Shown here: in pieces, positions 1-26,509 of the stretch
Layout: every line of letters starts with the position of its first letter
How positions within the stretch are numbered: position 1 is the first letter of the stretch
IMG/VR virus record: IMGVR_UViG_2675903650_000004
Span: 1 to 30,314 of that record
Strand: one strand, 5' to 3'
From: a virus
Taxonomy: Duplodnaviria; Heunggongvirae; Uroviricota; Caudoviricetes
DNA: 30,314 nt
The notes under the pieces: generated by a model
What the model was told of the DNA's origin: nothing
Database searches by the model: none
What the model saw: the letters and a program-made list of their open reading frames with translations, nothing else
Position numbers and translations under genes: made by a program

Positions 1-309
1 ACTAAATCAGTAAGTTGGCAGCATCACCGGCACCTCGCTGTCGGATGCTTTTGCTCTTTGAGATTATCAAAGCGGCAGATATTCTTTCATCTTAAATTTT
101 ACGTCTTTGTTCTGACTGAAGTTCATCCTGTTCGGCTGCGAAATAAATACATCATTAATACATATGTTGTGATGATGTATTTTTATAAATTATTTCCCGC
201 ATGAATTTTAATAAATTTAATCTATTCCTTTATACGCAATACATTTACTTTCCTCTTTTGATGATCTTAAATGTCTCATTTTTCGTAATGTGTATAACAA
301 GGAATAGTG

Positions 310-825
310 ATGAAATTTAAAAAATGTCTTCTGCCTGTGGCAATGTTAGCGTCATTCACTCTGGCAGGATGCCAGTCAAATGCTGATGATCATGCCGCCG
401 ATGTTTATCAAACCGATCAACTGAATACCAAACAAGAAACTAAAACCGTTAATATTATTTCCATTCTTCCCGCAAAAGTTGCCGTAGACAACGCCCAAAA
501 TAAACGGAACGCACAAGCCTTCGGCGCGCTTATTGGCGCTGTCGCTGGCGGTGTTATCGGCCACAACGTCGGGTCTGGCAGCAATTCCGGAACGACGGCA
601 GGTGCAGTTGGCGGCGGAGCTGTAGGCGCGGCAGCGGGTTCGATGGTGAATGATAAAACCTTAGTGGAAGGTGTTTCTTTAACATATAAGGAAGGCACCA
701 AAGTGTATACCTCCACCCAGGTGGGTAAAGAGTGCCAGTTTACGACAGGTTTAGCCGTTGTTATTACCACGACGTATAACGAAACGCGTATTCAGCCAAA
801 TACCAAATGTCCTGAAAAGAGCTAA
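310..825 (+). CDS. exported lipoprotein with glycine-zipper (YcfJ-like) segment
   Basis: ORF 307..825; ATG at 310 preceded by AAGGAA; signal peptide ending in lipobox LAGC; Gly/Ala-rich GALIGAVAGGVIGHNVGSG stretch typical of Gly-zipper membrane proteins; very AT-rich upstream region. Confidence 0.8.
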   Translation: MKFKKCLLPVAMLASFTLAGCQSNADDHAADVYQTDQLNTKQETKTVNIISILPAKVAVDNAQNKRNAQAFGALIGAVAGGVIGHNVGSGSNSGTTAGAVGGGAVGAAAGSMVNDKTLVEGVSLTYKEGTKVYTSTQVGKECQFTTGLAVVITTTYNETRIQPNTKCPEKS

Positions 826-840
826 TAATCAGGAGGAGTC

Positions 841-1380
841 ATGAAGAAAGTTTTTCTTTGCGCCATCTTAGCCTCCTTAAGCTATCCGGCTATCGCCTCA
901 TCATTGCAGGATCAACTCTCGGCTGTCGCAGAAGCGGAACAGCAAGGTAAAAATGAAGAGCAAAGGCAGCATGACGAATGGGTCGCGGAGCGCAACAGGG
1001 AAATCCAGCAAGAGAAGCAACGTCGCGCAAACGCCCAGGCCGCGGCTAATAAAAGAGCGGCAACGGCAGCAGCGAATAAGAAAGCTCGTCAGGATAAACT
1101 GGACGCCGAAGCCACTGCGGACAAAAAACGCGATCAAAGTTATGAAGATGAGCTACGTAGCTTAGAGATTCAGAAACAAAAACTGGCGCTGGCGAAAGAA
1201 GAAGCCCGCGTCAAGCGCGAAAACGAATTTATCGATCAGGAACTGAAGCACAAAGCTGCGCAAACCGATGTGGTGCAATCTGAAGCTGACGCAAACAGAA
1301 ATATGACTGAAGGCGGTCGCGATCTGATGAAAAGCGTGGGCAAAGCAGAAGAGAACAAATCGGACAGCTGGTTTAATTAA
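841..1380 (+). CDS. secreted highly charged coiled-coil protein, unknown function
   Basis: Strong SD (AGGAGG) just upstream of ATG 841; N-terminal signal peptide; K/R/E/Q-rich low-complexity helical body; followed by hairpin terminator. Confidence 0.75.
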   Translation: MKKVFLCAILASLSYPAIASSLQDQLSAVAEAEQQGKNEEQRQHDEWVAERNREIQQEKQRRANAQAAANKRAATAAANKKARQDKLDAEATADKKRDQSYEDELRSLEIQKQKLALAKEEARVKRENEFIDQELKHKAAQTDVVQSEADANRNMTEGGRDLMKSVGKAEENKSDSWFN

Positions 1381-1416
1381 TCGATGTAAGTAACTTCAAG
1401 CCTATAATTCTTGAAG

Positions 1417-1450
1417 ATAAAAAACCCTCTGTAGTAACAGAGGGTTTTGT
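1417..1450. terminator. bidirectional intrinsic terminator
   Basis: A-run, stem CCCTCTG / CAGAGGG with 6-nt loop, then T-run; sits between convergent gene sets (841..1380 plus, lysis cassette minus). Confidence 0.6.
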
Positions 1451-1599
1451 TCATTCATAGTGCAGGGATCAAAATCATTCCCACTCAATTATTTACGATA
1501 ACCATAACCAATTGAGTGATAACATTTTTCCAAATCTCAATTTTTCCCGTACCGTTTTATATACCGTCACCGGAAATCAGTACCGTGAAAAATGCCATG

Positions 1600-4859: not shown

Positions 4860-4886
4860 AAAAGGGGCTTTCAGCCCCTTTTTTTA
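4860..4886. terminator. bidirectional intrinsic terminator between convergent acyltransferase and tailspike genes
   Basis: Stem AGGGGCT / AGCCCCT with 3-nt loop, A-run upstream and T-run downstream (coordinates approximate). Confidence 0.7.
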
Positions 4887-6986
4887 CGTGGTAGTTGCGG
4901 ATACCTTCCATTCACCAGTTGATACGTATGTCCACTTCCACGGTCCGGTAGAAACCGGACCAAGCAATTCCCACTTGGTGCCAAACGGGAAATTAGTTGT
5001 ATCTCCCGTGGGTGGTGATACTGATAGAACCGTTATATATCCTGACTCAAGTCTGCATAATGCAGTCCATGATGAGTTTCCGGTTATACTATAGGTGCCG
5101 CCTGAATCAACCTTGTTGATCCAGCTCTGCCCACTCCCCCATCTAATAGAATCAGTGGTGTTGTCGGGAATTACCGCACCATTAAAATTTGCAGTTGCAT
5201 CATTAAGATATATGTATTTGCTAGATGAGACTCCAGAGTAACCAGAAAAATGAGATGAAACCAATGAGATGAAACACGATTCCAGAGATACAGCTTCAAC
5301 TCCTCCATCATGATGATTAACCCCTCTAAATGCAGTTACGTTAATTCGACTACCATTTATATCAAATATTTTACCAGTGCCTTCTTCGCTTCCGCATCCA
5401 GATAGATTTACTCCAGTACAATCTTTAAATTTATAGCCAGTACCATTAACGAAGTCAGCAGCCAAACAAGTCAGGCTGCTATATGTAATGTTATTAAAAT
5501 CATATGCAACACCTGAACATGTTTTCACATAAATATTGTTTAAATTATATGTGGTTCCACCTGCTTCGATTTTAACTCCAGTAACGACATCCTGAATAGT
5601 AATGTTTTCCCATGTCTGCAACCAGCTATCACTAGTGCGATAACCGGTTTTCACCCTATGAATATACAGGTCCTGAAGGCGCACATTGTAACTGATAGCG
5701 CTATATATCCCGTAATCACAAGGATTGGGCGCAGTATTTAGAATACTCAATCCAATTATTCTGGTGCTTCTTGTTTGTTTCCCGCTTAAATCACCTGATG
5801 TGTCACTATCCATATCTACCGCAACAATAAAGTCTTTGGAGAAGCTGTGTGGTACACCCTGCCACATGCGATCCGGAACGGTTTTAATATCGTTACCTGT
5901 TTTAATTAATCCACAGGAATCCATACCGCACCCCTCCAGCGTGACACGTGGAGGCACGATAGCGCCATACTTAATATCGTAAAATCCATTGAGTCTGAGC
6001 GTACCTCCTTCATATGGAAGGCATGCAGTCAGGCGTTCAAAGGCTTCACTGTTTTGCTCAGCCGTACATGATGTCATCATGCCACCGTTCTCTACCGGAA
6101 TATCGATGTGGCTTCCAGCTCTCTTCCATCGCTTACCGCCGGGGGTAACAAAAATATTCACACCATCGTCAGCTTCAGAACTGTCAAACGACATGAACAC
6201 CCCACCTCCAAGACCGGGGGTATCGCTATAATAACCTCTGACAATAATTTGCTGGTTTACTGACGAAGGTTCAGTATTTCTTAATGTGGCCACATCAGGG
6301 CAGGAACCGATATTTTTAAACCCATCGGTGGCAGCAAGCTGCAACATGACATCAGTAGCGCTCCCAGATTCCGGGAGAACCATGATTGGGTCTCCTGAAT
6401 CATCCATTGCAACAATCTTATTCTTACGTTGCTCAACGCCGGGCAAAGTTGATATCGGTTCGGGAGTTCGTAGCGTTCTGCTCAGGTTTGTTTCTGCAAG
6501 CCCGTCAACATAATTTTTCGTTGCTGCATCTTGCGGCCTAGATGGGTCACGAAGATTACGAATATAGTTATTCATCGCGTCGTAATAATTAGCCACGAAC
6601 GACGGCTTTCGTAGCGCCAGACTGAACCAATTTCGAACCTGCTGGATCAGCATCGTTAGCTTATCAAAAGCGTTCTCATGCACTTCTGCAAAGAACTTAC
6701 CCTGATTACGCAAATCAGTTTCCTGCGTAACCGGTAGCTCTCGATATATAGAAATCAGATAACCGTTAGCCAACACCTTCGACAGAATTACATTACCACC
6801 GTTATATCCTCCCGCCCCGGTAACTGTGTAATCAGTATCAAGAGCAAGAACAGTGATATTTTCATCAAGGTCAACCACTTGTACTACCAGATCAGATTTC
6901 TGGAAAATCCTGAAGGTATACGGAAATGATGTCGTAACACCGTTACCTGTGTATTCGTTGTGGTCAACTTCGGTTGAGACCGTCAT
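4884..6986 (-). CDS. tailspike / tail fibre with T7 gp17-like N-terminal anchor and beta-helix-like receptor-binding body
   Basis: 700 aa; N-terminal about 150 aa match the conserved podovirus tail-fibre anchor pattern (YTGNGVTTSFPYTF...DYTV) as remembered for T7 gp17; remainder rich in G/S/T/N beta-strand repeats typical of polysaccharide-binding or depolymerase tailspikes. Confidence 0.85.
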   Translation of the reverse strand: MTVSTEVDHNEYTGNGVTTSFPYTFRIFQKSDLVVQVVDLDENITVLALDTDYTVTGAGGYNGGNVILSKVLANGYLISIYRELPVTQETDLRNQGKFFAEVHENAFDKLTMLIQQVRNWFSLALRKPSFVANYYDAMNNYIRNLRDPSRPQDAATKNYVDGLAETNLSRTLRTPEPISTLPGVEQRKNKIVAMDDSGDPIMVLPESGSATDVMLQLAATDGFKNIGSCPDVATLRNTEPSSVNQQIIVRGYYSDTPGLGGGVFMSFDSSEADDGVNIFVTPGGKRWKRAGSHIDIPVENGGMMTSCTAEQNSEAFERLTACLPYEGGTLRLNGFYDIKYGAIVPPRVTLEGCGMDSCGLIKTGNDIKTVPDRMWQGVPHSFSKDFIVAVDMDSDTSGDLSGKQTRSTRIIGLSILNTAPNPCDYGIYSAISYNVRLQDLYIHRVKTGYRTSDSWLQTWENITIQDVVTGVKIEAGGTTYNLNNIYVKTCSGVAYDFNNITYSSLTCLAADFVNGTGYKFKDCTGVNLSGCGSEEGTGKIFDINGSRINVTAFRGVNHHDGGVEAVSLESCFISLVSSHFSGYSGVSSSKYIYLNDATANFNGAVIPDNTTDSIRWGSGQSWINKVDSGGTYSITGNSSWTALCRLESGYITVLSVSPPTGDTTNFPFGTKWELLGPVSTGPWKWTYVSTGEWKVSATTT

Positions 6987-7090: not shown

Positions 7091-7105
7091 TTACCTTTCA
7101 GGTGA
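7091..7105. promoter_or_regulatory. operator-like palindrome TTACC-N5-GGTGA (site a), about 105 nt upstream of tailspike start
   Basis: ATTACCTTTCAGGTGA; 14/15 identical to site d at 26096; lies in the divergent region between tailspike and antirepressor module. Confidence 0.4.
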
Positions 7106-7138
7106 TTTGCAAAACGTGCTGGATAGCAAACAAATTAT

Positions 7139-7162
7139 TTGATACTGTATATTTGTACAGTT
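7139..7162 (+). promoter_or_regulatory. LexA (SOS) box overlapping a putative promoter
   Basis: TACTGTATATTTGTACAGTT = CTGT-N8-ACAG with AT-rich spacer (LexA consensus); TTGATA -35-like hexamer immediately upstream; 20 nt before the RBS (GGAG) of ORF 7182. Confidence 0.65.
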
Positions 7163-7181
7163 ATTGCATGGAGAAGATAAG

Positions 7182-7439
7182 ATGCAGCAGTATCACTATC
7201 CACTGGAAGACGGATTTACCGAAAGGATTCACACGCCGGGAGGCGTCAGATTACTGGTGGAGGGATCGCTCTTGATGAAATTACTCCGGGATCTCGATAA
7301 GGATGGATTTAATGTCGATGGCCCACTTGCCGAACTGACTGCACTGATTAACTACGTCACCAGCTCACAGATGTCTATGCAGGATCTGCAAACACATCTC
7401 GACTATTGTGCCGAACAATTACGAAAACAAACCAGATAA
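7182..7439 (+). CDS. small protein paralogous to the C-terminal domain of the downstream antirepressor (candidate SOS-induced antirepressor)
   Basis: ORF 7164..7439 (TTG) with ATG at 7182 and GGAG RBS; residues GGVRLLVEGSLLMKLLRDLDKDGFNVDGPLAELTALINYV...DLQTHLDYCAEQL align by eye with the C-terminus of ORF 7755..8465. Confidence 0.6.
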   Translation: MQQYHYPLEDGFTERIHTPGGVRLLVEGSLLMKLLRDLDKDGFNVDGPLAELTALINYVTSSQMSMQDLQTHLDYCAEQLRKQTR

Positions 7440-7442
7440 GGT

Positions 7443-7485
7443 TTGCAATTACCAAGTGGAGTGCTTATATTTACCTTTGAGGTAA
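7443..7485 (+). promoter_or_regulatory. promoter (TTGCAA-17-TATATT) with overlapping operator TTACCTTTGAGGTAA (site b)
   Basis: Sigma70-like hexamers with 17-nt spacer; 15-bp palindrome begins at last base of the -10. Confidence 0.5.
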
Positions 7486-7598
7486 ATTTACATCGCACTC
7501 CTCTTGTGCCATAGTAATCGGGTACTGGCAAAATCCAGTGCCGGGATTGGCGTCCCGAGTTACTAAGTGGCGCATACCACGCCAGACGTGGTTTTTTT
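7486..7598 (+). ncRNA. candidate structured leader or small RNA ending at an intrinsic terminator upstream of ant
   Basis: No ORF with RBS; several local hairpins (ACTGG/CCAGT, CGGGA/TCCCG); terminator ACCACG-CCAGA-CGTGGT followed by T7 at about 7576..7598. Confidence 0.3.
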
Positions 7599-7754
7599 AT
7601 GCGTTAAGCACAGCCATATCCGAATTATGGTGGGCTGGGCAGGGGTCCGAAAGGACGCCGGTACCACTTAGGCCGGTACGCCAACCTTGTCCAGTTCACC
7701 ACCAGTAATTGGCGTTGCGGTGGTGATTAAAATCACTAAGTGGAGATAACCACC

Positions 7755-8465
7755 ATGGCTAATGCTCAAACTGCCATCTTCAAATTTGAATCTGTTAACC
7801 CTATCCGTTCCATCATTATCGATGGCCAACCATGGTTTGTAGCCCAAGACGTTTGTAGTGCGCTGCGTATCCAAAACGTCACCCAATCACTTGAAAAACT
7901 GGATGATGATGAAAGGTCTATGTTCAACATAGGGCATGAACATCGTGCAATTTTTGACAGCCGAGTAAAAGAGATCAACATCATCTCCGAGTCAGGCCTC
8001 TACACACTGATCCTCCGCTGCCGCGATGCGGTGACACCAGGCACTATCCCCTACCGCTTTCGTAAATGGGTTACAGGTGAGGTTCTTCCTCAGATCCGCC
8101 GCACCGGAAGTTACATTAAAAACTCGCTCCCGCAGGAAGAACGCATAAAGATGGTTGCCGACCAGGTAGCCAACGCCACGGCGTCAGCAGTAATACAGGC
8201 AATGAAGATAGAGAACAAAACCTACAGTGCCCCACTGAAGCCCGGCTACCGCAGCCTGATTCACTCGCCGTCTGGTGTTCTCGGCCTGACGGAGAACTCA
8301 CTGCTGATGAATCTGCTGAACCAGTTACAGGAAGACGGGCATGACGTATCGGGCGCGGCGGCGGAACTGACCACCATGTTCTGCTACATCGTCGGTGTGA
8401 GTAAATGCCTGCGTGATATCCAGACCCACGCGGAATACATCAACGACAAGGCAGGATTCTTCTGA
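7755..8465 (+). CDS. phage antirepressor (Bro-N / Ant N-terminal domain plus C-terminal domain)
   Basis: ORF 7740..8465 (GTG); ATG 7755 with GGAG 9 nt upstream; Bro-N-type signature FKFESVNPIRSIIIDGQPWFVAQDVCSALRI. Confidence 0.85.
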   Translation: MANAQTAIFKFESVNPIRSIIIDGQPWFVAQDVCSALRIQNVTQSLEKLDDDERSMFNIGHEHRAIFDSRVKEINIISESGLYTLILRCRDAVTPGTIPYRFRKWVTGEVLPQIRRTGSYIKNSLPQEERIKMVADQVANATASAVIQAMKIENKTYSAPLKPGYRSLIHSPSGVLGLTENSLLMNLLNQLQEDGHDVSGAAAELTTMFCYIVGVSKCLRDIQTHAEYINDKAGFF

Positions 8466-8509
8466 CGGGCGGTGGCACATGGATGTGCTTTTAAATAATT
8501 CTGTACAGA

Positions 8510-8552
8510 TTGCAGACTGTGGGTGAATAGCGTACTATTACCTCAAGGGTAA
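8510..8552 (+). promoter_or_regulatory. promoter (TTGCAG-17-TACTAT) with overlapping operator TTACCTCAAGGGTAA (site c)
   Basis: Same architecture as site b: -35, 17-nt spacer, -10, then 15-bp TTACC-N5-GGTAA palindrome. Confidence 0.5.
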
Positions 8553-8612
8553 ACGGATTGGTTTCATTTTTATTAATCCGTGTAATGAACTTATGAGATA
8601 TGAGGTAATGTC

Positions 8613-8792
8613 ATGCGAAACGAAAAATTGCAGATGCGTAGAGCGCAAGCTGCCGCAAGACGTTCTTTCAATGGAAGCGTAGAGTACGTAAAAGTTACTA
8701 TGACAAAAGATCACGCAAGTCGCGTATCCCGCGCTTTCTTTGATTCTCGTAACAATAAGGAAAATTATGAGTTCGTCTGCGTCGCAGAATGA
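8613..8792 (+). CDS. hypothetical 59-aa basic protein (candidate antitoxin or regulator)
   Basis: Not in ORF track (below length cut-off); ATG 8613 with GAGG 7 nt upstream; translation MRNEKLQMRRAQAAARRSF...; 3' end overlaps start of ORF 8767 by 26 nt. Confidence 0.35.
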   Translation: MRNEKLQMRRAQAAARRSFNGSVEYVKVTMTKDHASRVSRAFFDSRNNKENYEFVCVAE

Positions 8793-9312
8793 TAAAAATC
8801 AAATTGTCAGATATAAGGGTCGAGTATTGCATACGCAAAATTTCTCGGCCCTTTGTGCATCTGATCTTGAGCTGAAGAAAGTATCTGATGCCTTTACCCA
8901 GTATTGGAAAACGGGATACCATCCATCTCTTGGTAAAGATGCTGCATTTGCTCGTCCGACAGAAATGCTTAAACTAAATGTCAGGCATACTCATGTCGAT
9001 AACCAAGACTATATTCCAGAAGATAGTGATAAAAAACACACTGGTAAAAAATCATCTTGGGATGCATGGAAAAATATAGCGTCTGTACAAGTAAAATGCA
9101 TACCAACAAGTGATTGCTTTTTAGTTTATTCGGTAAATCACAATCGTGATGCGCTGGTTATGTTTTTTGTTGACGCAGATGCTCACAACATAACTGAGCA
9201 AGAAGAGTTTAAAGAGGCAGCAATCACTATCAGTTATCAATTCTTTGAGAAAACAAAAACAGAACCAATGCCTTTAGAAGAAGATCTTTTTTCTGATAAA
9301 TGGAAGGAATAG
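8767..9312 (+). CDS. hypothetical protein with YafO-like toxin motif (candidate toxin or abortive-infection effector)
   Basis: ORF 8740..9312 (TTG); ATG 8767 with AAGGA RBS; central G[KR]DA...RP...H.H.. and LVY...D.D.H pattern resembles YafO-family toxins as recalled from memory; AT-rich; own promoter/operator upstream and terminator downstream. Confidence 0.7.
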   Translation: MSSSASQNDKNQIVRYKGRVLHTQNFSALCASDLELKKVSDAFTQYWKTGYHPSLGKDAAFARPTEMLKLNVRHTHVDNQDYIPEDSDKKHTGKKSSWDAWKNIASVQVKCIPTSDCFLVYSVNHNRDALVMFFVDADAHNITEQEEFKEAAITISYQFFEKTKTEPMPLEEDLFSDKWKE

Positions 9313-9332
9313 CCCGCGCCGCGGGCTTTTTT
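9311..9332 (+). terminator. intrinsic terminator
   Basis: GC stem GCCCGC / GCGGGC with 3-nt loop then TTTTTT, immediately after stop of ORF 8767..9312. Confidence 0.75.
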
Positions 9333-9404
9333 GTGGACGAAACAAAAGTCAGTGCTACACTCATTGACGCCACATCGAGGTGGCTTATAGATGGAAATTT
9401 CACA

Positions 9405-9566
9405 ATGAAAAAAGCATTTGCTGCACTGTTCGTTTTGTTGTCTCTGGTAGCTTCAACTCAGGCCTTTGCCGGTCGTTGTCAGCACGACAGCGATACTGCC
9501 GCTGACGGCTCCCGCTGCGGTGGGCGTTCTGCGGATTCCCGCCCGGGCGGCGGTGGCATTCGTTAA
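9405..9566 (+). CDS. signal-peptide mini-ORF (53 aa; small exported peptide or remnant of a truncated secreted-protein gene)
   Basis: Internal ATG of ORF 9300..9566; classic Sec signal MKKAFAALFVLLSLVASTQAFA then a GC-rich 31-codon tail with two Cys; weak RBS; possible promoter TTGACG at about 9364. Confidence 0.35.
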   Translation: MKKAFAALFVLLSLVASTQAFAGRCQHDSDTAADGSRCGGRSADSRPGGGGIR

Positions 9567-17829: not shown

Positions 17830-20300
17830 CAGAACCCCCCAACAGTAAGGCGAGGAATAACGGCAAGAACAGACAGCGGCAACGGGTCAAGCTGACGGAT
17901 TCTTACACGTCCGTTTTTTCCCCAGTTACTGTCCAGTTTCACATCTACTTTTCCGGTAGCGTCATCAACAGGATCATCGTAGAACTCGAATTCACGCTGT
18001 GGATATTCGTACCATTTACCGCCGGGCGTAGTCGCCCAGATGCCGCGACTGGCATTCACCACCAGGGTAACGGACGGGATCACCTGTTTTTTGTCCAGCA
18101 GTGTTTCCTGTCCGTTAATGTTGATATCCAGTGTTTCGAATTCAGAAGTTATTGGCAGGCCGATGTGCACTACAGCCCCCGGTGATTCCAGCGTGACGGC
18201 ACCTCCGGAAACCACTTTCTGTGGTTCCACGTTCGCATCAGAGAGAATGTTTACGGTCTGGCCTTCAAGATGAGACAGGCCTCCAAATGTCCGGCGCGCC
18301 ATCTGCCAGTTCGTGGTGGCCGCATTCCTGAGGGATGGCGGGACGTTCCTGTTGGCACGAACCACTACAGCGGTATTGCTGGTTACAGAAATAATGTCGC
18401 AACGTAATTCTTTTGACACTTCATCGCCAGTATCAGGATCAGTTCCGGTATAAGGGAACTGTAGTTGCGCGTCGACATCACTACTGGTGAAGTACGCACC
18501 ACCAGAAACACTGATTGTATATTCCGTACGGTAATCCCATTCACCAGAACCACCAGTGATGGTCATTGTTCTGTCAGACGTATTTCTTCCATCATAGCTA
18601 AGGCCAGAATCAACAAAGAAAGCATCTTCATCGCTGGTAAATAAACGGCTGGACAGTCGCTCGATGTATCTCACTGTTTGCCCGTTAACGGTTCGGTTAA
18701 CGACGAAATACACCGCATCTTCATTGCCTTCGCTGATACTGCATGTGCTTTCATATTTTCCGGTACTGGATTGTGGTGCCCATGCAAAAACCTGCTGATC
18801 ACGCAAATAGGTCATCACCAGTAATTTACCGTCATCACGAATGCAGAAGGCACTGGAGTAAGGGACAATCGAGAAGCACCAGTCAACAATGCTGTGCTTC
18901 TGAAAAAGATGATTGGCAAGGATAGTAAGGTCGTTCCCCTGATAGCCGTCAACATCGAATGAGTAGGCCAGATCACGGACAACACTGCCTTTCTCCTGGA
19001 CGAACAGAGCAATATTCGCCACGGCAATTGGTGGGACATTGCTCGAGCCATTTGATCCCTGAGAGCTGAATGCAAATGATGATGGGGTTAACACTTTGTT
19101 CTGGTCGCCGGTGATGACGTACTCACCTCCGGAAGTCAGTGCCACCAGCGAACCGACATCAATCAGGTGACGGATCTCATTAACCTGACGCCCGGCATAG
19201 GTGTAGATAATTCTGTCGTCATCCTGCGTAGGATTGCTTTTACCAAAATCCTTATAATCACCGGTACGGCTGGCCCAGATAGTCTGAGGGAACGCAGTCG
19301 ATGCGGCAAAGTAAAGACGTTGTTGATAATAAACAACAGTGCCAGGATAACCGTTAACACTGTTCCAGGCATATTTAGCCCATTTATAGCTTGCATTATT
19401 CGCACCAACTACCTGCGAAGGGATATAGGAAATCACCTCGGCAGTTGCAGTAGTTCCATTTGCAGCAGTGATACGGGCAATGCCAAAACCACTGTGCAGA
19501 TATTCCCACTCAATGCCGGTATCATCATCACCGGATCCGCCCCAGCCATCCCATGATGTGCCTTCTGTATGCGAAGGGCGCAAAGTGCATGTTTTGCCTG
19601 CTGTAACGGCGCGATAGTAGTTACTGTCTGCACGGCGAATATCGCCAATCGACGTACTCTTACTGGTTTCCCATACCGGTACTGAATCCACTGCTGGCTG
19701 TTCCAGATAGAACAATTTGCCTACCTGCTCCACGCCAAAAATAGAGGCGCTTGCCGTTAACGTAATTGTCCCGGTGCTGGCGCTGGCATAAACCGTCACT
19801 GACTCGTCAATATTGATATCTTCAAATGGCCCGTTCTTCGTTACCACATCAACCAGTTGCCAGTTGTCATGCGCATAGCGGCGCAACTCTTTCGGCGGGT
19901 ATGCCGGATGAACCAGCGTAAGCACGTCTGCGCTTTGCGTGAATTTAATTCTGAACAGATCGGCTTCAGTATATGGCGTGGCAATTTCATAAATAACATT
20001 GCTGCTGTTCAGCACCAACGCACCATCTTTGATAACGCGCATGTACTGGTGTCCGAACTCCAGAGCATAAGTCTGAACCGTCGAGAACTGGAACGGGATC
20101 AGGCGGCATTTCCGATTTGGGTATTTGGCGGCACCGACAAAACGCGTACCAGGTCGATTCTCAACGCCGCCATACTGCCGCACGATAAAGTTATCGCACT
20201 TGCGCAATGCCACCTGGTACTTCGCCATGTCGATACGTCCGTACAACGACGGTCCAATCTCACCACCAGCAAAGCTGGGCTGGATCCAACTGATAGCCAT
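17829..20300 (-). CDS. tail tubular protein B-like (nozzle, T7 gp12-like)
   Basis: 823 aa; N-terminal pattern MAISWIQPSFAGGEIGPSLYGRID...NRPGTRF and size consistent with podovirus nozzle proteins. Confidence 0.75.
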   Translation of the reverse strand: MAISWIQPSFAGGEIGPSLYGRIDMAKYQVALRKCDNFIVRQYGGVENRPGTRFVGAAKYPNRKCRLIPFQFSTVQTYALEFGHQYMRVIKDGALVLNSSNVIYEIATPYTEADLFRIKFTQSADVLTLVHPAYPPKELRRYAHDNWQLVDVVTKNGPFEDINIDESVTVYASASTGTITLTASASIFGVEQVGKLFYLEQPAVDSVPVWETSKSTSIGDIRRADSNYYRAVTAGKTCTLRPSHTEGTSWDGWGGSGDDDTGIEWEYLHSGFGIARITAANGTTATAEVISYIPSQVVGANNASYKWAKYAWNSVNGYPGTVVYYQQRLYFAASTAFPQTIWASRTGDYKDFGKSNPTQDDDRIIYTYAGRQVNEIRHLIDVGSLVALTSGGEYVITGDQNKVLTPSSFAFSSQGSNGSSNVPPIAVANIALFVQEKGSVVRDLAYSFDVDGYQGNDLTILANHLFQKHSIVDWCFSIVPYSSAFCIRDDGKLLVMTYLRDQQVFAWAPQSSTGKYESTCSISEGNEDAVYFVVNRTVNGQTVRYIERLSSRLFTSDEDAFFVDSGLSYDGRNTSDRTMTITGGSGEWDYRTEYTISVSGGAYFTSSDVDAQLQFPYTGTDPDTGDEVSKELRCDIISVTSNTAVVVRANRNVPPSLRNAATTNWQMARRTFGGLSHLEGQTVNILSDANVEPQKVVSGGAVTLESPGAVVHIGLPITSEFETLDININGQETLLDKKQVIPSVTLVVNASRGIWATTPGGKWYEYPQREFEFYDDPVDDATGKVDVKLDSNWGKNGRVRIRQLDPLPLSVLAVIPRLTVGGF

Positions 20301-26005: not shown

Positions 26006-26432
26006 ATCAATGACTCCGTACGCAATTAAATTATTACCAATTTAACCACATATGATTTATTTATCGTAGATAGTTGACATTTAACGCACGAATTATTACC
26101 TTTCAGGTAAGCAAAGAGTTCATTCCGGTTATTAACCTGACTGGCTTGTCGTTAAATTGAACAGGTGGAGTGAGCTTTTATTTTGAGCAGTACGGCGTAT
26201 GGCACATGCGCCGATAGCGGTCTGGATACGTTTAAGGGGCACCCTCCCTTGCTCGAGCAAACGAACCAGGTAGCCGGAATGTGCAAGTCGAGCGGTTTTA
26301 TTCCGCGCACGGGGATTCACCATCCCGGCGATTCGGTGTGACGCCTCGGAAGAGACGAGGGTACAACGATGAGAGCATTTATGGAGCCGCGACAAAGTGT
26401 GGCGCCTTAACAGGCTAAGTGCTCTCAGCGTT

Positions 26433-26509
26433 GTGGCATTAGCTCAGTTGGACAGAGCAACCGCCTTCTAAGCGGTTGGTCGCAGGTTCGAATCCTGCAT
26501 GCCACGCCA
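26433..26509 (+). tRNA. tRNA-Arg (anticodon UCU)
   Basis: Cloverleaf read by eye: acceptor GTGGCAT/ATGCCAC, D-arm GCTC-AGTTGGAC-AGAGC, anticodon stem ACCGC/GCGGT with loop CTTCTAA, T-arm GCAGG-TTCGAAT-CCTGC, 3' discriminator G + CCA. Confidence 0.85.

What the first reader, a model, noticed from the sequence alone, without database searches (positions are those of the whole stretch)
7139..8465. LexA box controlling an antirepressor module that includes a stand-alone Ant C-domain paralog
A near-consensus SOS box (CTGT-N8-ACAG, 7143..7162) overlaps the promoter of an 85-aa ORF (7182..7439) whose sequence parallels the C-terminal about 60 residues of the full Bro-N antirepressor encoded 300 nt downstream. 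LexA-controlled small antirepressors are known in Gifsy-type and 186-type phages; here the small protein is a domain paralog of a canonical Ant in the same transcription direction. This would make prophage induction RecA-cleavage-independent but SOS-dependent.
Basis: partly seen in the sequence, partly recalled or inferred. Interest (0 to 1): 0.6.

Follow-up and report, generated by a model that had tools for sequence, protein, structure and literature searches.

The report
Two antirepressors sharing one repressor-binding domain
An E. coli prophage of the epsilon15/phiV10 group carries the already characterised SOS-controlled small antirepressor next to a second, RNA-controlled antirepressor whose tail is a copy of the small one. 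The first part is known biology; the pairing of the two is a modest new observation.

Summary
TACTGTATATTTGTACAGTT (7143-7162) is the only near-consensus SOS box in the window. It lies 20 nt upstream of an 85-aa ORF (7182-7439). That ORF aligns with the C-terminal 74 residues of the Bro-N protein at 7755-8465 (43% identity, E 2e-15).

The small protein is an 86%-identical homolog of the Salmonella phage SPC32H antirepressor Ant (PDB 5D50 chain E). Its box aligns column for column with the SPC32H LexA site, the site mutated in the lytic variant SPC32N. That part is already known.

The two genes are not one LexA operon. The 315-nt spacer holds a promoter-like site, a repressor-operator-like palindrome, an isrK-like RNA with terminator, and a C4 antisense RNA. 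The two C4 loops pair with sites upstream and at the Bro-N ribosome-binding site. These pairings co-vary in 75 related loci. This is a P1-immI / Gifsy-1-isrK type of control.

In relatives the C-terminal Ant-like domain stays 94-100% identical. The N-terminal domain is swapped among Bro-N variants, AntA and ORF6N.

Most likely reading: two inputs, SOS and antisense RNA, act on one non-cleavable repressor through one shared binding domain. Interest is moderate.

The parts
7091..7105 (.). Operator-like palindrome TTACCTTTCAGGTGA (TTACC-N5-GGTAA with 1 mismatch). It lies 15 nt upstream of the proposed -35 of the small ant promoter, in the region shared with the divergent tailspike gene.
   Evidence: The motif occurs 8 times in the window against 0.5 expected, 14 times in phiV10 and 18 times in SPC32H. 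These include 2-3 copies in each rep-cro intergenic region. A copy is conserved at this position in SPC32H, Tyrion, Citrobacter, Scandinavium and Klebsiella. Assignment to Rep is an inference.
7120..7148 (+). Proposed promoter of the small antirepressor gene: -35 TGGATA (7120-7125), 17-nt spacer, -10 TACTGT (7143-7148, inside the SOS box).
   Evidence: The hexamers and the 17-nt spacing are conserved across genera while the spacer sequence varies. The site was not flagged by the consensus scanner. This is an inference.
7143..7162 (.). LexA (SOS) box TACTGTATATTTGTACAGTT.
   Evidence: It is unique in the window, with 0 expected. CTGT and ACAG are intact in 77 of 78 informative relatives while the central 8 nt vary. 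It aligns with the SPC32H box, and SPC32N differs there only by ACAG to AAAG.
7182..7439 (+). Small antirepressor Ant (85 aa), a close homolog of SPC32H Ant.
   Evidence: PDB 5d50_E, E 1e-44. 85.9% identity to SPC32H Ant. PHROG 450. No Pfam or NCBIfam family matches.
7443..7471 (+). Promoter-like site TTGCAA-17-TATATT for the isrK/C4/Bro-N-ant unit.
   Evidence: Consensus scan. Relatives with a gene inserted upstream keep a different but equivalent site, TTGATT-17-TATCAT, at the same place. This is an inference.
7471..7485 (.). Perfect operator-like palindrome TTACCTTTGAGGTAA. It starts at the last base of the -10 hexamer and covers the expected transcription start.
   Evidence: It is conserved in 61 distinct sequences from 75 loci and in Tyrion.
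7509..7598 (+). Leader RNA. It holds the c4-a1b1 target element (7509-7561), with a1 TTGGCGT at 7547-7553 and b1 CTAAGTGG at 7563-7570. It also holds the isrK-like RNA (7522-7598), which ends in an intrinsic terminator (stem 7576-7592 followed by a T run).
   Evidence: Rfam RF01394 at 63.5 bits (gathering score 50) and RF03163 at 43.4 bits (just below its gathering score of 46.7). Terminator scan. Complementarity.
7623..7706 (+). C4-type antisense RNA, with b' CCACTTAG at 7664-7671 in a hairpin loop and a' ACGCCAA at 7678-7684.
   Evidence: Rfam RF01695 at 66 bits (gathering score 45). Pairing with a1/b1 and a2/b2. Covariation in 75 loci.
7709..7746 (+). Downstream C4 targets: a2 TTGGCGT (7709-7715) and b2 CTAAGTGG (7736-7743). 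b2 overlaps the Shine-Dalgarno GGAG (7742-7745) of the Bro-N gene.
7755..8465 (+). Large antirepressor (236 aa). Bro-N domain at residues 17-112 (nt 7803-8090). Ant-like C-terminal domain at residues 153-234 (nt 8211-8456).
   Evidence: PF02498, E 3.7e-19. PHROG 450 on residues 153-234, E 4.5e-36. 5d50_E, E 1.3e-14. From residue 72 to the end it is identical to vB_EcoP_ZX5 ORF4. Overexpression of ORF4 lowered lysogen counts about 1000-fold (PMC9782041).
8538..8552 (.). Third operator-like palindrome, TTACCTCAAGGGTAA. It marks the start of the next unit (59-aa ORF plus YafO-like gene) and so bounds the module on the right.

Best explanation
The region is the anti-immunity corner of an integrated phiV10/epsilon15-like (Uetakevirus) prophage of E. 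coli. It holds two separate antirepressor units that most likely act on the same prophage repressor, Rep, through homologous domains of about 80 residues.

Unit 1 (7091-7439). LexA sits on the SOS box, which overlaps the -10 of the small ant promoter. DNA damage removes LexA. The 85-aa Ant is made and, as in SPC32H, binds the non-cleavable Rep and takes it off its operators. Homology and the aligned position of the box are shown here. Binding and regulation are inferred from SPC32H.

Unit 2 (7443-8465). A promoter covered by a Rep-type operator drives an isrK-like leader that mostly terminates at 7598. Read-through transcripts carry a C4 antisense RNA and then the Bro-N::Ant-C gene. The a' and b' loops of C4 pair with a2 and b2, masking the ribosome-binding site, so the large antirepressor stays off. 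It is released when C4 is outcompeted or does not match. The upstream a1/b1 copy in the isrK-like RNA can act as a decoy or activator, as IsrK does in Gifsy-1. The RNA elements, the pairing and the covariation are shown here. The regulatory outcome is inferred from P1 immI and Gifsy-1 isrK-anrP.

The RNA specificity cassette and the N-terminal domain are shuffled among otherwise near-identical prophages, while the C-terminal Ant domain stays constant. This fits unit 2 being an immI-type anti-immunity device for superinfection or feedback, and unit 1 being the SOS induction switch.
For: Identity of unit 1:
- PDB 5d50_E, E 1e-44.
- SPC32H ant and rep are annotated in GenBank in the same genomic slots.
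- The box aligns with the SPC32H site, and SPC32N carries a point change in ACAG.
- The box is intact in 77 of 78 informative relatives with a variable centre. A box or a one-mismatch variant is present in seven other genera.
- Secondary sources describe LexA-controlled Ant and tetrameric Ant breaking up the Rep tetramer (PMC7380047 and PMC9638917).

Rep partner:
- phiV10 p40 matches 5d50_A at E 4e-42.
- A prophage 99.9% identical to the window over 13 kb encodes the identical Rep.
- That Rep has HTH domains only and no S24 peptidase domain.

Unit 2:
- Rfam hits for isrK and C4 are above their gathering scores.
- A promoter-like site and a terminator are present.
- a'/a1/a2 pair over 7 bp and b'/b1/b2 over 8 bp.
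- Across 75 loci there are three a-types and four b-types, and each locus is self-complementary at all three sites. Cross-type pairing drops to 3-6 bp.
- The spacer RNA folds with z = -5.2.

Independence of the two units:
- An opposite-strand 242-aa gene lies between them in many relatives.
- Salmonella relatives have unit 1 only, with its own terminator.

Shared domain:
-.
- The C-domain is 94-100% identical in 72 of 80 loci, while the N-domain is one of four Bro-N variants, AntA or ORF6N.
- A profile search of 1.84 billion representatives finds only 60 members. Some are stand-alone and some are C-terminal fusions to Bro-N, AntA, Rha or ORF6N.

Function of the large protein: ZX5 ORF4 has the same C-domain and its phage has the same Rep. 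Its overexpression reduced lysogens from 1e9 to 1e6.

Operator: the TTACC-N5-GGTAA palindrome is enriched 16- to 35-fold and clusters in the rep-cro intergenic regions.
Against: - No experiment exists on this prophage.
- rep lies outside the window, about 5-6 kb past its right end, so the partner is known only from near-identical relatives.
- That Rep is only 43% identical to SPC32H Rep, and 38% in the C-terminal half that Ant is reported to bind, while Ant is 86% identical. Transfer of the binding mode is plausible but not guaranteed.
- The small Ant and the C-domain share only 43% identity. They could bind different partners, or the domain could serve mainly for tetramerisation.
- There is no icd/orf45-like coupling ORF, so the P1 and Gifsy-1 mechanisms cannot be copied exactly.
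- The promoters are weak consensus matches.
- There is no terminator between the small ant stop codon and 7576. Some LexA-dependent transcription may therefore enter unit 2, and independence may not be complete.
- phiV10 itself carries a frameshifted C-domain, so unit 2 is dispensable for a viable phage.
Confidence: 0.65

Rival explanations
1. One reading: one LexA-controlled operon. Both the small protein and the Bro-N Ant are transcribed from the SOS promoter and co-induced directly by LexA cleavage.
For: Both genes run in the same direction and lie 315 nt apart. No intrinsic terminator lies between the small ant stop codon (7439) and 7576. The two units are adjacent in five further genera besides Escherichia.
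Against: A terminator (7576-7598) and an antisense-RNA lock on the ribosome-binding site sit between the genes. Unit 2 has its own promoter-like site and operator, which are kept even where other DNA is inserted upstream. In roughly a quarter of relatives an opposite-strand gene separates the units. There is no second SOS box near 7440-7755.
Confidence: 0.12
2. RNA relay, an add-on to the best explanation rather than an alternative. SOS-driven transcripts of the small ant gene run on to the isrK terminator, so their 3' end is an a1/b1-bearing IsrK-like RNA. This RNA titrates C4 or opens the read-through mRNA and so switches on translation of the large antirepressor. LexA would then control the whole module, but indirectly through RNA.
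For: There is no terminator between 7439 and 7576. a1/b1 are complementary to the same C4 loops as a2/b2. In Gifsy-1, IsrK supplied in trans raises anrP translation more than 100-fold (PMC4825925).
Against: The arrangement is broken by an inserted convergent gene in many relatives. b1 and b2 are identical here, so no preference for the decoy is evident. No expression data exist.
Confidence: 0.2
3. The large protein is not an antirepressor of the prophage Rep. Its Ant-like C-domain is only an oligomerisation module, and the Bro-N, AntA or ORF6N head does the work, for example by binding DNA or acting against a host or competitor factor.
For: SPC32H Ant is reported to be a tetramer (PMC9638917), so the fold does oligomerise. 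The functions of Bro-N proteins are largely unknown. The small Ant and the C-domain are only 43% identical.
Against: The C-domain is the constant part while the heads are swapped between unrelated folds. That pattern is expected if the tail carries the lineage-specific function. ZX5 ORF4, with an identical tail, shifted the phage toward lytic growth. The RNA control is the one used for antirepressors in P1 and Gifsy-1.
Confidence: 0.12

Closest known systems
Salmonella phage SPC32H LexA-Ant-Rep switch (Kim and Ryu 2013, J Virol 87:11775; Kim et al. 2016, PNAS 113:E2480; PDB 5D50 and 5D4Z)
   Same: The small protein is 86% identical to SPC32H Ant. The gene sits in the same place, next to the tailspike gene. 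The SOS box is at the aligned position, and an operator-like palindrome lies upstream. A Rep homolog without a peptidase domain is present in close relatives.
   Different: SPC32H has only this unit, followed by its own terminator. Here it is followed by a second, RNA-controlled antirepressor that carries a homologous domain. Rep is only 43% identical. I could not read the two primary papers. Their content is taken from citing papers, from the GenBank annotation, and from my own recollection of the abstracts.
Phage P1/P7 immI operon (c4 antisense RNA, icd, ant1/2; Rfam RF01695 and RF03163)
   Same: A C4-type RNA is transcribed ahead of the antirepressor gene. Its two loops (a', b') are complementary to one target pair upstream (a1, b1) and one at the ribosome-binding site downstream (a2, b2). 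A repressor operator sits at the promoter. RNA specificity types differ between related phages.
   Different: There is no icd-like coupling ORF, and b2 sits directly on the ant Shine-Dalgarno sequence. The antirepressor protein is unrelated to P1 Ant apart from the general N-domain class. The host phage is a podovirus. Knowledge of P1 is from the established literature, not tested here.
Gifsy-1 isrK-orf45-anrP locus of Salmonella (Hershko-Shalev et al. 2016, PMC4825925)
   Same: An isrK-family RNA with its own terminator is followed by a stable processed RNA (STnc1160 there, C4 here) and an antirepressor gene that is translationally silent on the read-through transcript.
   Different: There is no orf45. 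The target of the antirepressor and its downstream effects (AntQ) differ. Here the unit lies next to a LexA-controlled paralog.
Escherichia phage vB_EcoP_ZX5 ORF4 'anti-repressor' (PMC9782041)
   Same: Same genus and same Rep as phiV10. ORF4 is 80% identical overall to the window protein and 100% identical from residue 72 to the end. Overexpression pushed the phage toward lytic growth.
   Different: That paper does not mention the small Ant (annotated as hypothetical), LexA, or the RNAs.
Coliphage 186 Tum and Gifsy/Fels-2 LexA-controlled antirepressors
   Same: The logic is the same: a LexA-repressed small antirepressor inactivates a non-cleavable repressor (PMC7380047).
   Different: No sequence relationship was detected. 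The 85-aa protein matches no Pfam or NCBIfam model. This is analogy, not membership.
Phage P22 immI (mnt-arc-ant with sar antisense RNA)
   Same: An antirepressor region lies next to the tailspike gene in a temperate podovirus and has an antisense RNA layer (established knowledge).
   Different: The regulators differ (Mnt/Arc proteins), the Ant protein differs, and P22 c2 is RecA-cleavable.

Membership tests
SPC32H-type small antirepressor (Ant, PDB 5D50 chain E) | Full-length sequence homology to the crystallised 86-aa Ant | tested here: met
   phmmer E 9.9e-45, residues 2-84 against 3-85. 85.9% identity.
SPC32H-type small antirepressor (Ant, PDB 5D50 chain E) | LexA box overlapping the ant promoter | tested here: met
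   The box at 7143-7162 aligns with the SPC32H box. SPC32N differs there by ACAG to AAAG. Promoter overlap is inferred from the conserved TGGATA-17-TACTGT arrangement.
SPC32H-type small antirepressor (Ant, PDB 5D50 chain E) | Cognate Rep of the SPC32H type (two HTH regions, no autocleavage domain) in the same phage | tested here: inconclusive
   rep lies outside the window. It is present in phiV10 (5d50_A, E 4e-42) and in a prophage 99.9% identical over 13 kb. Only HTH domains are found. Identity to SPC32H Rep is 43%.
SPC32H-type small antirepressor (Ant, PDB 5D50 chain E) | LexA binding, and Ant-Rep complex formation that releases Rep from DNA | not testable with these tools
   Needs EMSA, pull-down assays and genetics.
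Ant-like domain as C-terminus of the Bro-N protein | Significant homology of residues about 150-236 to Ant | tested here: met
   E 2e-15 to the small ORF, 1.3e-14 to 5d50_E, and PHROG 450 at 4.5e-36. The start of the domain coincides with the recombination junction in the AntA and ORF6N fusions.
P1 immI-type C4 antisense control (RF01695, RF03163) | C4 RNA with the family's sequence and structure | tested here: met
   66 bits against a gathering score of 45, full model length.
P1 immI-type C4 antisense control (RF01695, RF03163) | a'/b' complementary to a1/b1 upstream and to a2/b2 at the downstream ribosome-binding site | tested here: met
   Helices of 7 bp and 8 bp at both target sites, with b2 overlapping the Shine-Dalgarno sequence. 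Three a-types and four b-types co-vary in 75 loci. The RF03163 hit is 43.4 bits, just under its gathering score of 46.7.
P1 immI-type C4 antisense control (RF01695, RF03163) | icd-like ORF translationally coupled to ant | tested here: not met
   No ORF links C4 to the ant start codon. The only ATG inside C4 (7627) opens a 14-codon frame that ends at 7671.
Gifsy-1 isrK locus (RF01394) | isrK RNA with a rho-independent terminator upstream of an antirepressor gene | tested here: met
   63.5 bits against a gathering score of 50. Terminator at 7576-7592 followed by a T run.
Gifsy-1 isrK locus (RF01394) | orf45 coupling ORF, and trans-activation by short IsrK | tested here: not met
   No orf45 equivalent is present. 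Trans-activation cannot be tested here.
BRO-N domain proteins (PF02498) | Pfam Bro-N domain above the gathering score | tested here: met
   69.6 bits against 25.6, residues 17-112.
186 Tum / Gifsy GfoA-type antirepressors | Sequence homology to those proteins | tested here: not met
   The 85-aa protein has no Pfam or NCBIfam match. Its only named relatives are SPC32H-type Ant proteins. No direct pairwise comparison with Tum was run.

The most novel reading that the evidence does not exclude
LexA controls the whole two-gene module after all, but through an RNA relay. SOS-induced small-ant transcripts end at the isrK terminator and so deliver an a1/b1 decoy. The decoy strips C4 from the ribosome-binding site of the large antirepressor. 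A protein signal (LexA cleavage) would thus be converted into the opening of an antisense-RNA lock. The three a-types and four b-types would form a combinatorial immunity code among prophages that otherwise share the same repressor.
Probability: 0.2. Interest if true: 0.6.

Novelty: new variant of a known kind. Interest (0 to 1): 0.4.

Why it matters
The LexA/small-Ant switch is already established, so on that point this locus adds only another member.

Three things appear undescribed in the literature I could search.
(a) The crystallised 86-aa Ant is the same domain that forms the C-terminus of large 'antirepressor' proteins with Bro-N, AntA, Rha or ORF6N heads. This gives a concrete, testable assignment of the repressor-binding part of these poorly understood proteins.
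(b) One phage lineage, present in about 10% of complete E. coli genomes, carries both forms side by side under two different controls, SOS and antisense RNA.
(c) The antisense lock exists in at least seven co-varying specificity combinations next to a constant protein domain.

Neither protein has a Pfam or NCBIfam model. RefSeq calls the small one 'hypothetical protein'. Correct annotation would therefore affect predictions of prophage inducibility in hundreds of genomes.

Tried and rejected
- Primary papers: I tried to read Kim and Ryu 2013 and Kim et al. 2016 by DOI and by PMC id. Neither is held. Their claims are taken from citing papers and from my recollection of the abstracts.
- Promoter scan: the consensus scan found no site for the small gene. 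The proposed promoter rests on cross-genus conservation only.
- Word-indexed protein search: it returned only stand-alone homologs. The fusions appeared only in the exhaustive profile search.
- A third b-like site at 7447-7461: I rejected it as a C4 target because it does not co-vary with the b-type in relatives.
- The other two CTGT-N8-ACAG matches (22084 and 26625): I judged them chance matches because of their G+C-rich centres and distant positions.
- The ORF at 28642-29316: I first took it for the repressor because two palindromes lie at its 5' end. It is the small terminase. rep is not in the window.
- ORFs 307-825 and 841-1380: PHROG names the first 'DNA methyltransferase', but both are host chromosomal genes next to guaA.
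- Co-divergence of Rep, Ant and Ant-C was computed for only three phages. That is too few to separate co-evolution from shared ancestry.
- Structure prediction was not run. Sequence homology to the solved chain is already decisive, and complexes cannot be modelled with the tools given.
Full report
**Where the window comes from**

The window is one end of an integrated Uetakevirus (epsilon15/phiV10-like) prophage of E. coli.
- Bases 1-1489 are host chromosome. Two genes found next to guaA in many E. coli genomes lie at 307-825 and 841-1380.
- The published attachment core ATTGAGTGGGAATGATT lies at 1473-1489 (core sequence from PMC9782041).
- To the right come the lysis genes, an O-acetyltransferase and the tailspike (4884-6986, minus strand). 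Next is the region of the finding on the plus strand. The structural genes then run up to the small terminase at about 29.3 kb.
- The closest phage records are TL-2011b, HEMP4, vB_EcoP_ZX5 and phiV10.

**The observation**

- The 20-mer at 7143-7162, TACTGTATATTTGTACAGTT, is the only site in the window within three mismatches of the SOS-box consensus. None is expected by chance.
- An 85-codon ORF starts 20 nt downstream, behind a GGAG Shine-Dalgarno sequence.
- Its product aligns without gaps to residues 155-228 of the 236-aa protein encoded at 7755-8465: 43% identity, E 2e-15.
- The N-terminus of that larger protein is a Bro-N domain.

**What the small gene is**

- It is a close homolog of the antirepressor Ant of Salmonella phage SPC32H. 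It matches PDB 5D50 chain E ('Anti-repressor protein') at E 1e-44 and is 86% identical to the GenBank ant product.
- In SPC32H the gene occupies the same slot beside the tailspike gene.
- I aligned the upstream regions of the window, SPC32H, SPC32N, Enterobacter phage Tyrion and four chromosomal prophages from other genera. The SOS boxes fall in the same columns.
- SPC32H and its lytic sibling SPC32N differ there by a single base that destroys ACAG.
- This fits what the literature reports for SPC32H. LexA represses ant, Rep is not cleaved but is inactivated by Ant, and tetrameric Ant splits the Rep tetramer (PMC7380047 and PMC9638917). The primary papers were not available to me.
- Among 80 close relatives from IMG/VR, 77 keep CTGT-N8-ACAG with a variable centre. 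Two of the remaining three are cut by contig ends and one by a rearrangement.
- The box, or a one-mismatch version of it, also precedes the homolog in Citrobacter, Pseudocitrobacter, Superficieibacter, Scandinavium, Klebsiella and Buttiauxella.
- A conserved TGGATA lies exactly 17 nt upstream of the TACTGT arm in the aligned genera other than Buttiauxella and Klebsiella, although the spacer sequence varies. I take this as the promoter, which places the box on the -10. This is an inference.

**The repressor partner**

- rep is not in the window.
- phiV10 p40 matches the Rep chain of 5D50 at E 4e-42.
- A chromosomal prophage 99.9% identical to the window over 13 kb encodes the identical protein.
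- That protein has HTH domains only and no S24 peptidase domain.
- This Rep is only 43% identical to SPC32H Rep. Transfer of the mechanism is likely but not proven.

**The spacer between the two genes**

The 315-nt spacer is not empty, and this changes the interpretation. It contains, in order:
- a promoter-like site, TTGCAA-17-TATATT, at 7443-7471;
- a perfect palindrome, TTACCTTTGAGGTAA, at 7471-7485;
- a match to the c4-a1b1 target motif;
- an isrK-family RNA ending in an intrinsic terminator (7522-7598);
- a full-length C4 antisense RNA (7623-7706).

The isrK and C4 matches are above the Rfam gathering scores. The whole spacer folds far better than shuffled controls (z = -5.2).

Pairing of the C4 loops:
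- Loop b' (CCACTTAG) is complementary to b1 (7563-7570) and to b2 (7736-7743).
- Segment a' (ACGCCAA) is complementary to a1 (7547-7553) and to a2 (7709-7715).
- b2 overlaps the Shine-Dalgarno sequence of the Bro-N gene (ATG at 7755).

In 75 related loci I found three a-types and four b-types, in seven combinations. In every locus all three copies match each other with helices of 7-9 bp. Non-cognate combinations pair over only 3-6 bp. This compensatory variation at three sites is strong comparative evidence that the pairings are functional.

The architecture is that of the P1/P7 immI operon (established knowledge) and of the Gifsy-1 isrK-orf45-anrP locus. In Gifsy-1 the read-through mRNA is translationally silent and short IsrK activates it in trans (PMC4825925). 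Unlike both, there is no coupling ORF here. The lock sits directly on the antirepressor's ribosome-binding site.

**The palindrome**

- TTACC-N5-GGTAA occurs 8 times in the window (0.5 expected), 14 times in phiV10 and 18 times in SPC32H.
- Two or three copies lie in each rep-cro intergenic region. Further copies lie upstream of the terminase genes and at other promoters.
- I infer that it is the Rep operator.
- Three copies lie in or beside the finding. One is upstream of the small-ant promoter (7091-7105, also facing the divergent tailspike gene). One is on the start site of the isrK/C4/ant unit (7471-7485). One is ahead of the next unit (8538-8552).
- The large antirepressor would therefore be held off both by Rep and by C4. 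It would become transcribable once Rep is removed.

**The two units are separable**

- Salmonella members have only the small gene, followed by its own terminator.
- In about a quarter of E. coli relatives a 242-aa gene on the opposite strand lies between the two units. There the isrK promoter has a different -35 but the same layout.
- Even so, the pair recurs together in Enterobacter, Citrobacter, Superficieibacter, Scandinavium and Klebsiella.

**The shared domain**

- In 72 of 80 relatives the protein after C4 ends in a domain 94-100% identical to that of the window.
- Its N-terminal part is one of four diverged Bro-N variants, an AntA domain or an ORF6N domain.
- In the AntA and ORF6N fusions the junction falls just before YSAPLKPGY. 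This is exactly where homology to the stand-alone Ant begins.
- A profile of the domain searched against 1.84 billion representative proteins finds only 60 members. Some are stand-alone proteins of 80-95 aa. Others are C-terminal fusions to Bro-N, AntA, Rha or ORF6N heads.
- The tail is therefore the lineage-specific constant part, and the head and the RNA lock are interchangeable.
- vB_EcoP_ZX5 ORF4 has the identical tail and its phage has the same Rep. Its overexpression lowered lysogen counts about 1000-fold. That paper does not mention the small gene, LexA or the RNAs.

**Mechanism proposed**

- Unit 1 is the SOS induction switch, as in SPC32H.
- Unit 2 is an immI-type device. It makes a second antirepressor with the same Rep-binding domain only when the antisense lock fails. 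This could happen on superinfection by a phage of another RNA type. It could also happen after Rep removal, when transcription and a1/b1 decoy RNA rise.
- Because no terminator lies between 7439 and 7576, SOS-driven transcripts may themselves supply that decoy. This is an untested possibility that would restore indirect LexA control of the whole module.
- Shown here: the homologies, the RNA elements, the pairing and covariation, the motif enrichment and the domain shuffling.
- Inferred: LexA binding, Rep binding by either protein, operator identity, promoter positions and the regulatory outcome.

**Novelty**

- The LexA-controlled small antirepressor is already known.
- I found no description of three points in the searchable literature. 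These are its homology to the tails of large antirepressors, the side-by-side arrangement under two controls, and the many RNA specificity types.
- Neither protein has a Pfam or NCBIfam model.
- The region occurs in 534 of 5426 complete E. coli genomes, where the small gene is annotated 'hypothetical protein'.
- I rate it a new variant of known kinds, of moderate interest.

Noticed in passing
window 26074-26509 (+ strand): Among minus-strand structural genes there is a plus-strand unit. It has a TTGACA hexamer (26074-26079) and a perfect TTACCTTTCAGGTAA palindrome (26096-26110). About 320 nt with no Rfam match follow, and then tRNA-Arg(UCU) at 26433-26509. This looks like a repressor-controlled phage tRNA with a long leader of unknown function.
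   Followed up: partly
window 1-1489: The left end is E. coli chromosome next to guaA (genes at 307-825 and 841-1380). The phiV10/epsilon15 attachment core ATTGAGTGGGAATGATT lies at 1473-1489, so the window contains a prophage-host junction. PHROG 1277 labels the host gene at 307-825 'DNA methyltransferase', which looks wrong.
   Followed up: partly
window 8472-9566: Downstream of the Bro-N gene there is a promoter-like site plus a palindrome. They are followed by a 59-aa ORF (8613-8792), an overlapping 181-aa ORF with a YafO-toxin Pfam match (E 1e-5), and an 88-aa ORF at 9300-9566. This may be a toxin-antitoxin-like moron under repressor control.
   Followed up: no
L001/L003 (phiV10 DQ126339.2) 19551-20230: In the phiV10 reference genome the Bro-N gene is split by a frameshift inside the Ant-like C-domain (annotated as p23 plus the 29-aa p22). 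The second antirepressor is therefore probably inactive in that phage, or the record has a sequencing error.
   Followed up: partly
L036 2781-3509, and about 25 of 80 IMG/VR loci: A 242-aa opposite-strand gene lies between the small ant gene and the isrK unit in many relatives. It has an N-terminal hydrophobic segment and a Cys-rich C-terminus. TL-2011b has a similar 1.1-kb insert.
   Followed up: no
window 29238-29270; phiV10 87-119; SPC32H 12-26: One or two copies of the presumed Rep operator lie directly upstream of the small terminase gene, and others lie at several further promoters. The repressor seems to act at many dispersed sites across the genome, reminiscent of P1 C1, rather than at one rep-cro switch.
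   Followed up: partly
L090, L107, L108 (Rep and Ant comparisons): Small Ant proteins are 84-86% identical between E. coli, Salmonella and Enterobacter phages. Their Rep proteins are only 43-78% identical, and 38% in the C-terminal half between the E. coli and SPC32H types. The antirepressor is much more conserved than its presumed target.
   Followed up: no
L049 1-73: One IMG/VR contig ends in a Nextera transposase adapter sequence (AGATGTGTATAAGAGACAG) joined to the middle of the SOS box. This is an assembly artefact, not a variant.
   Followed up: yes
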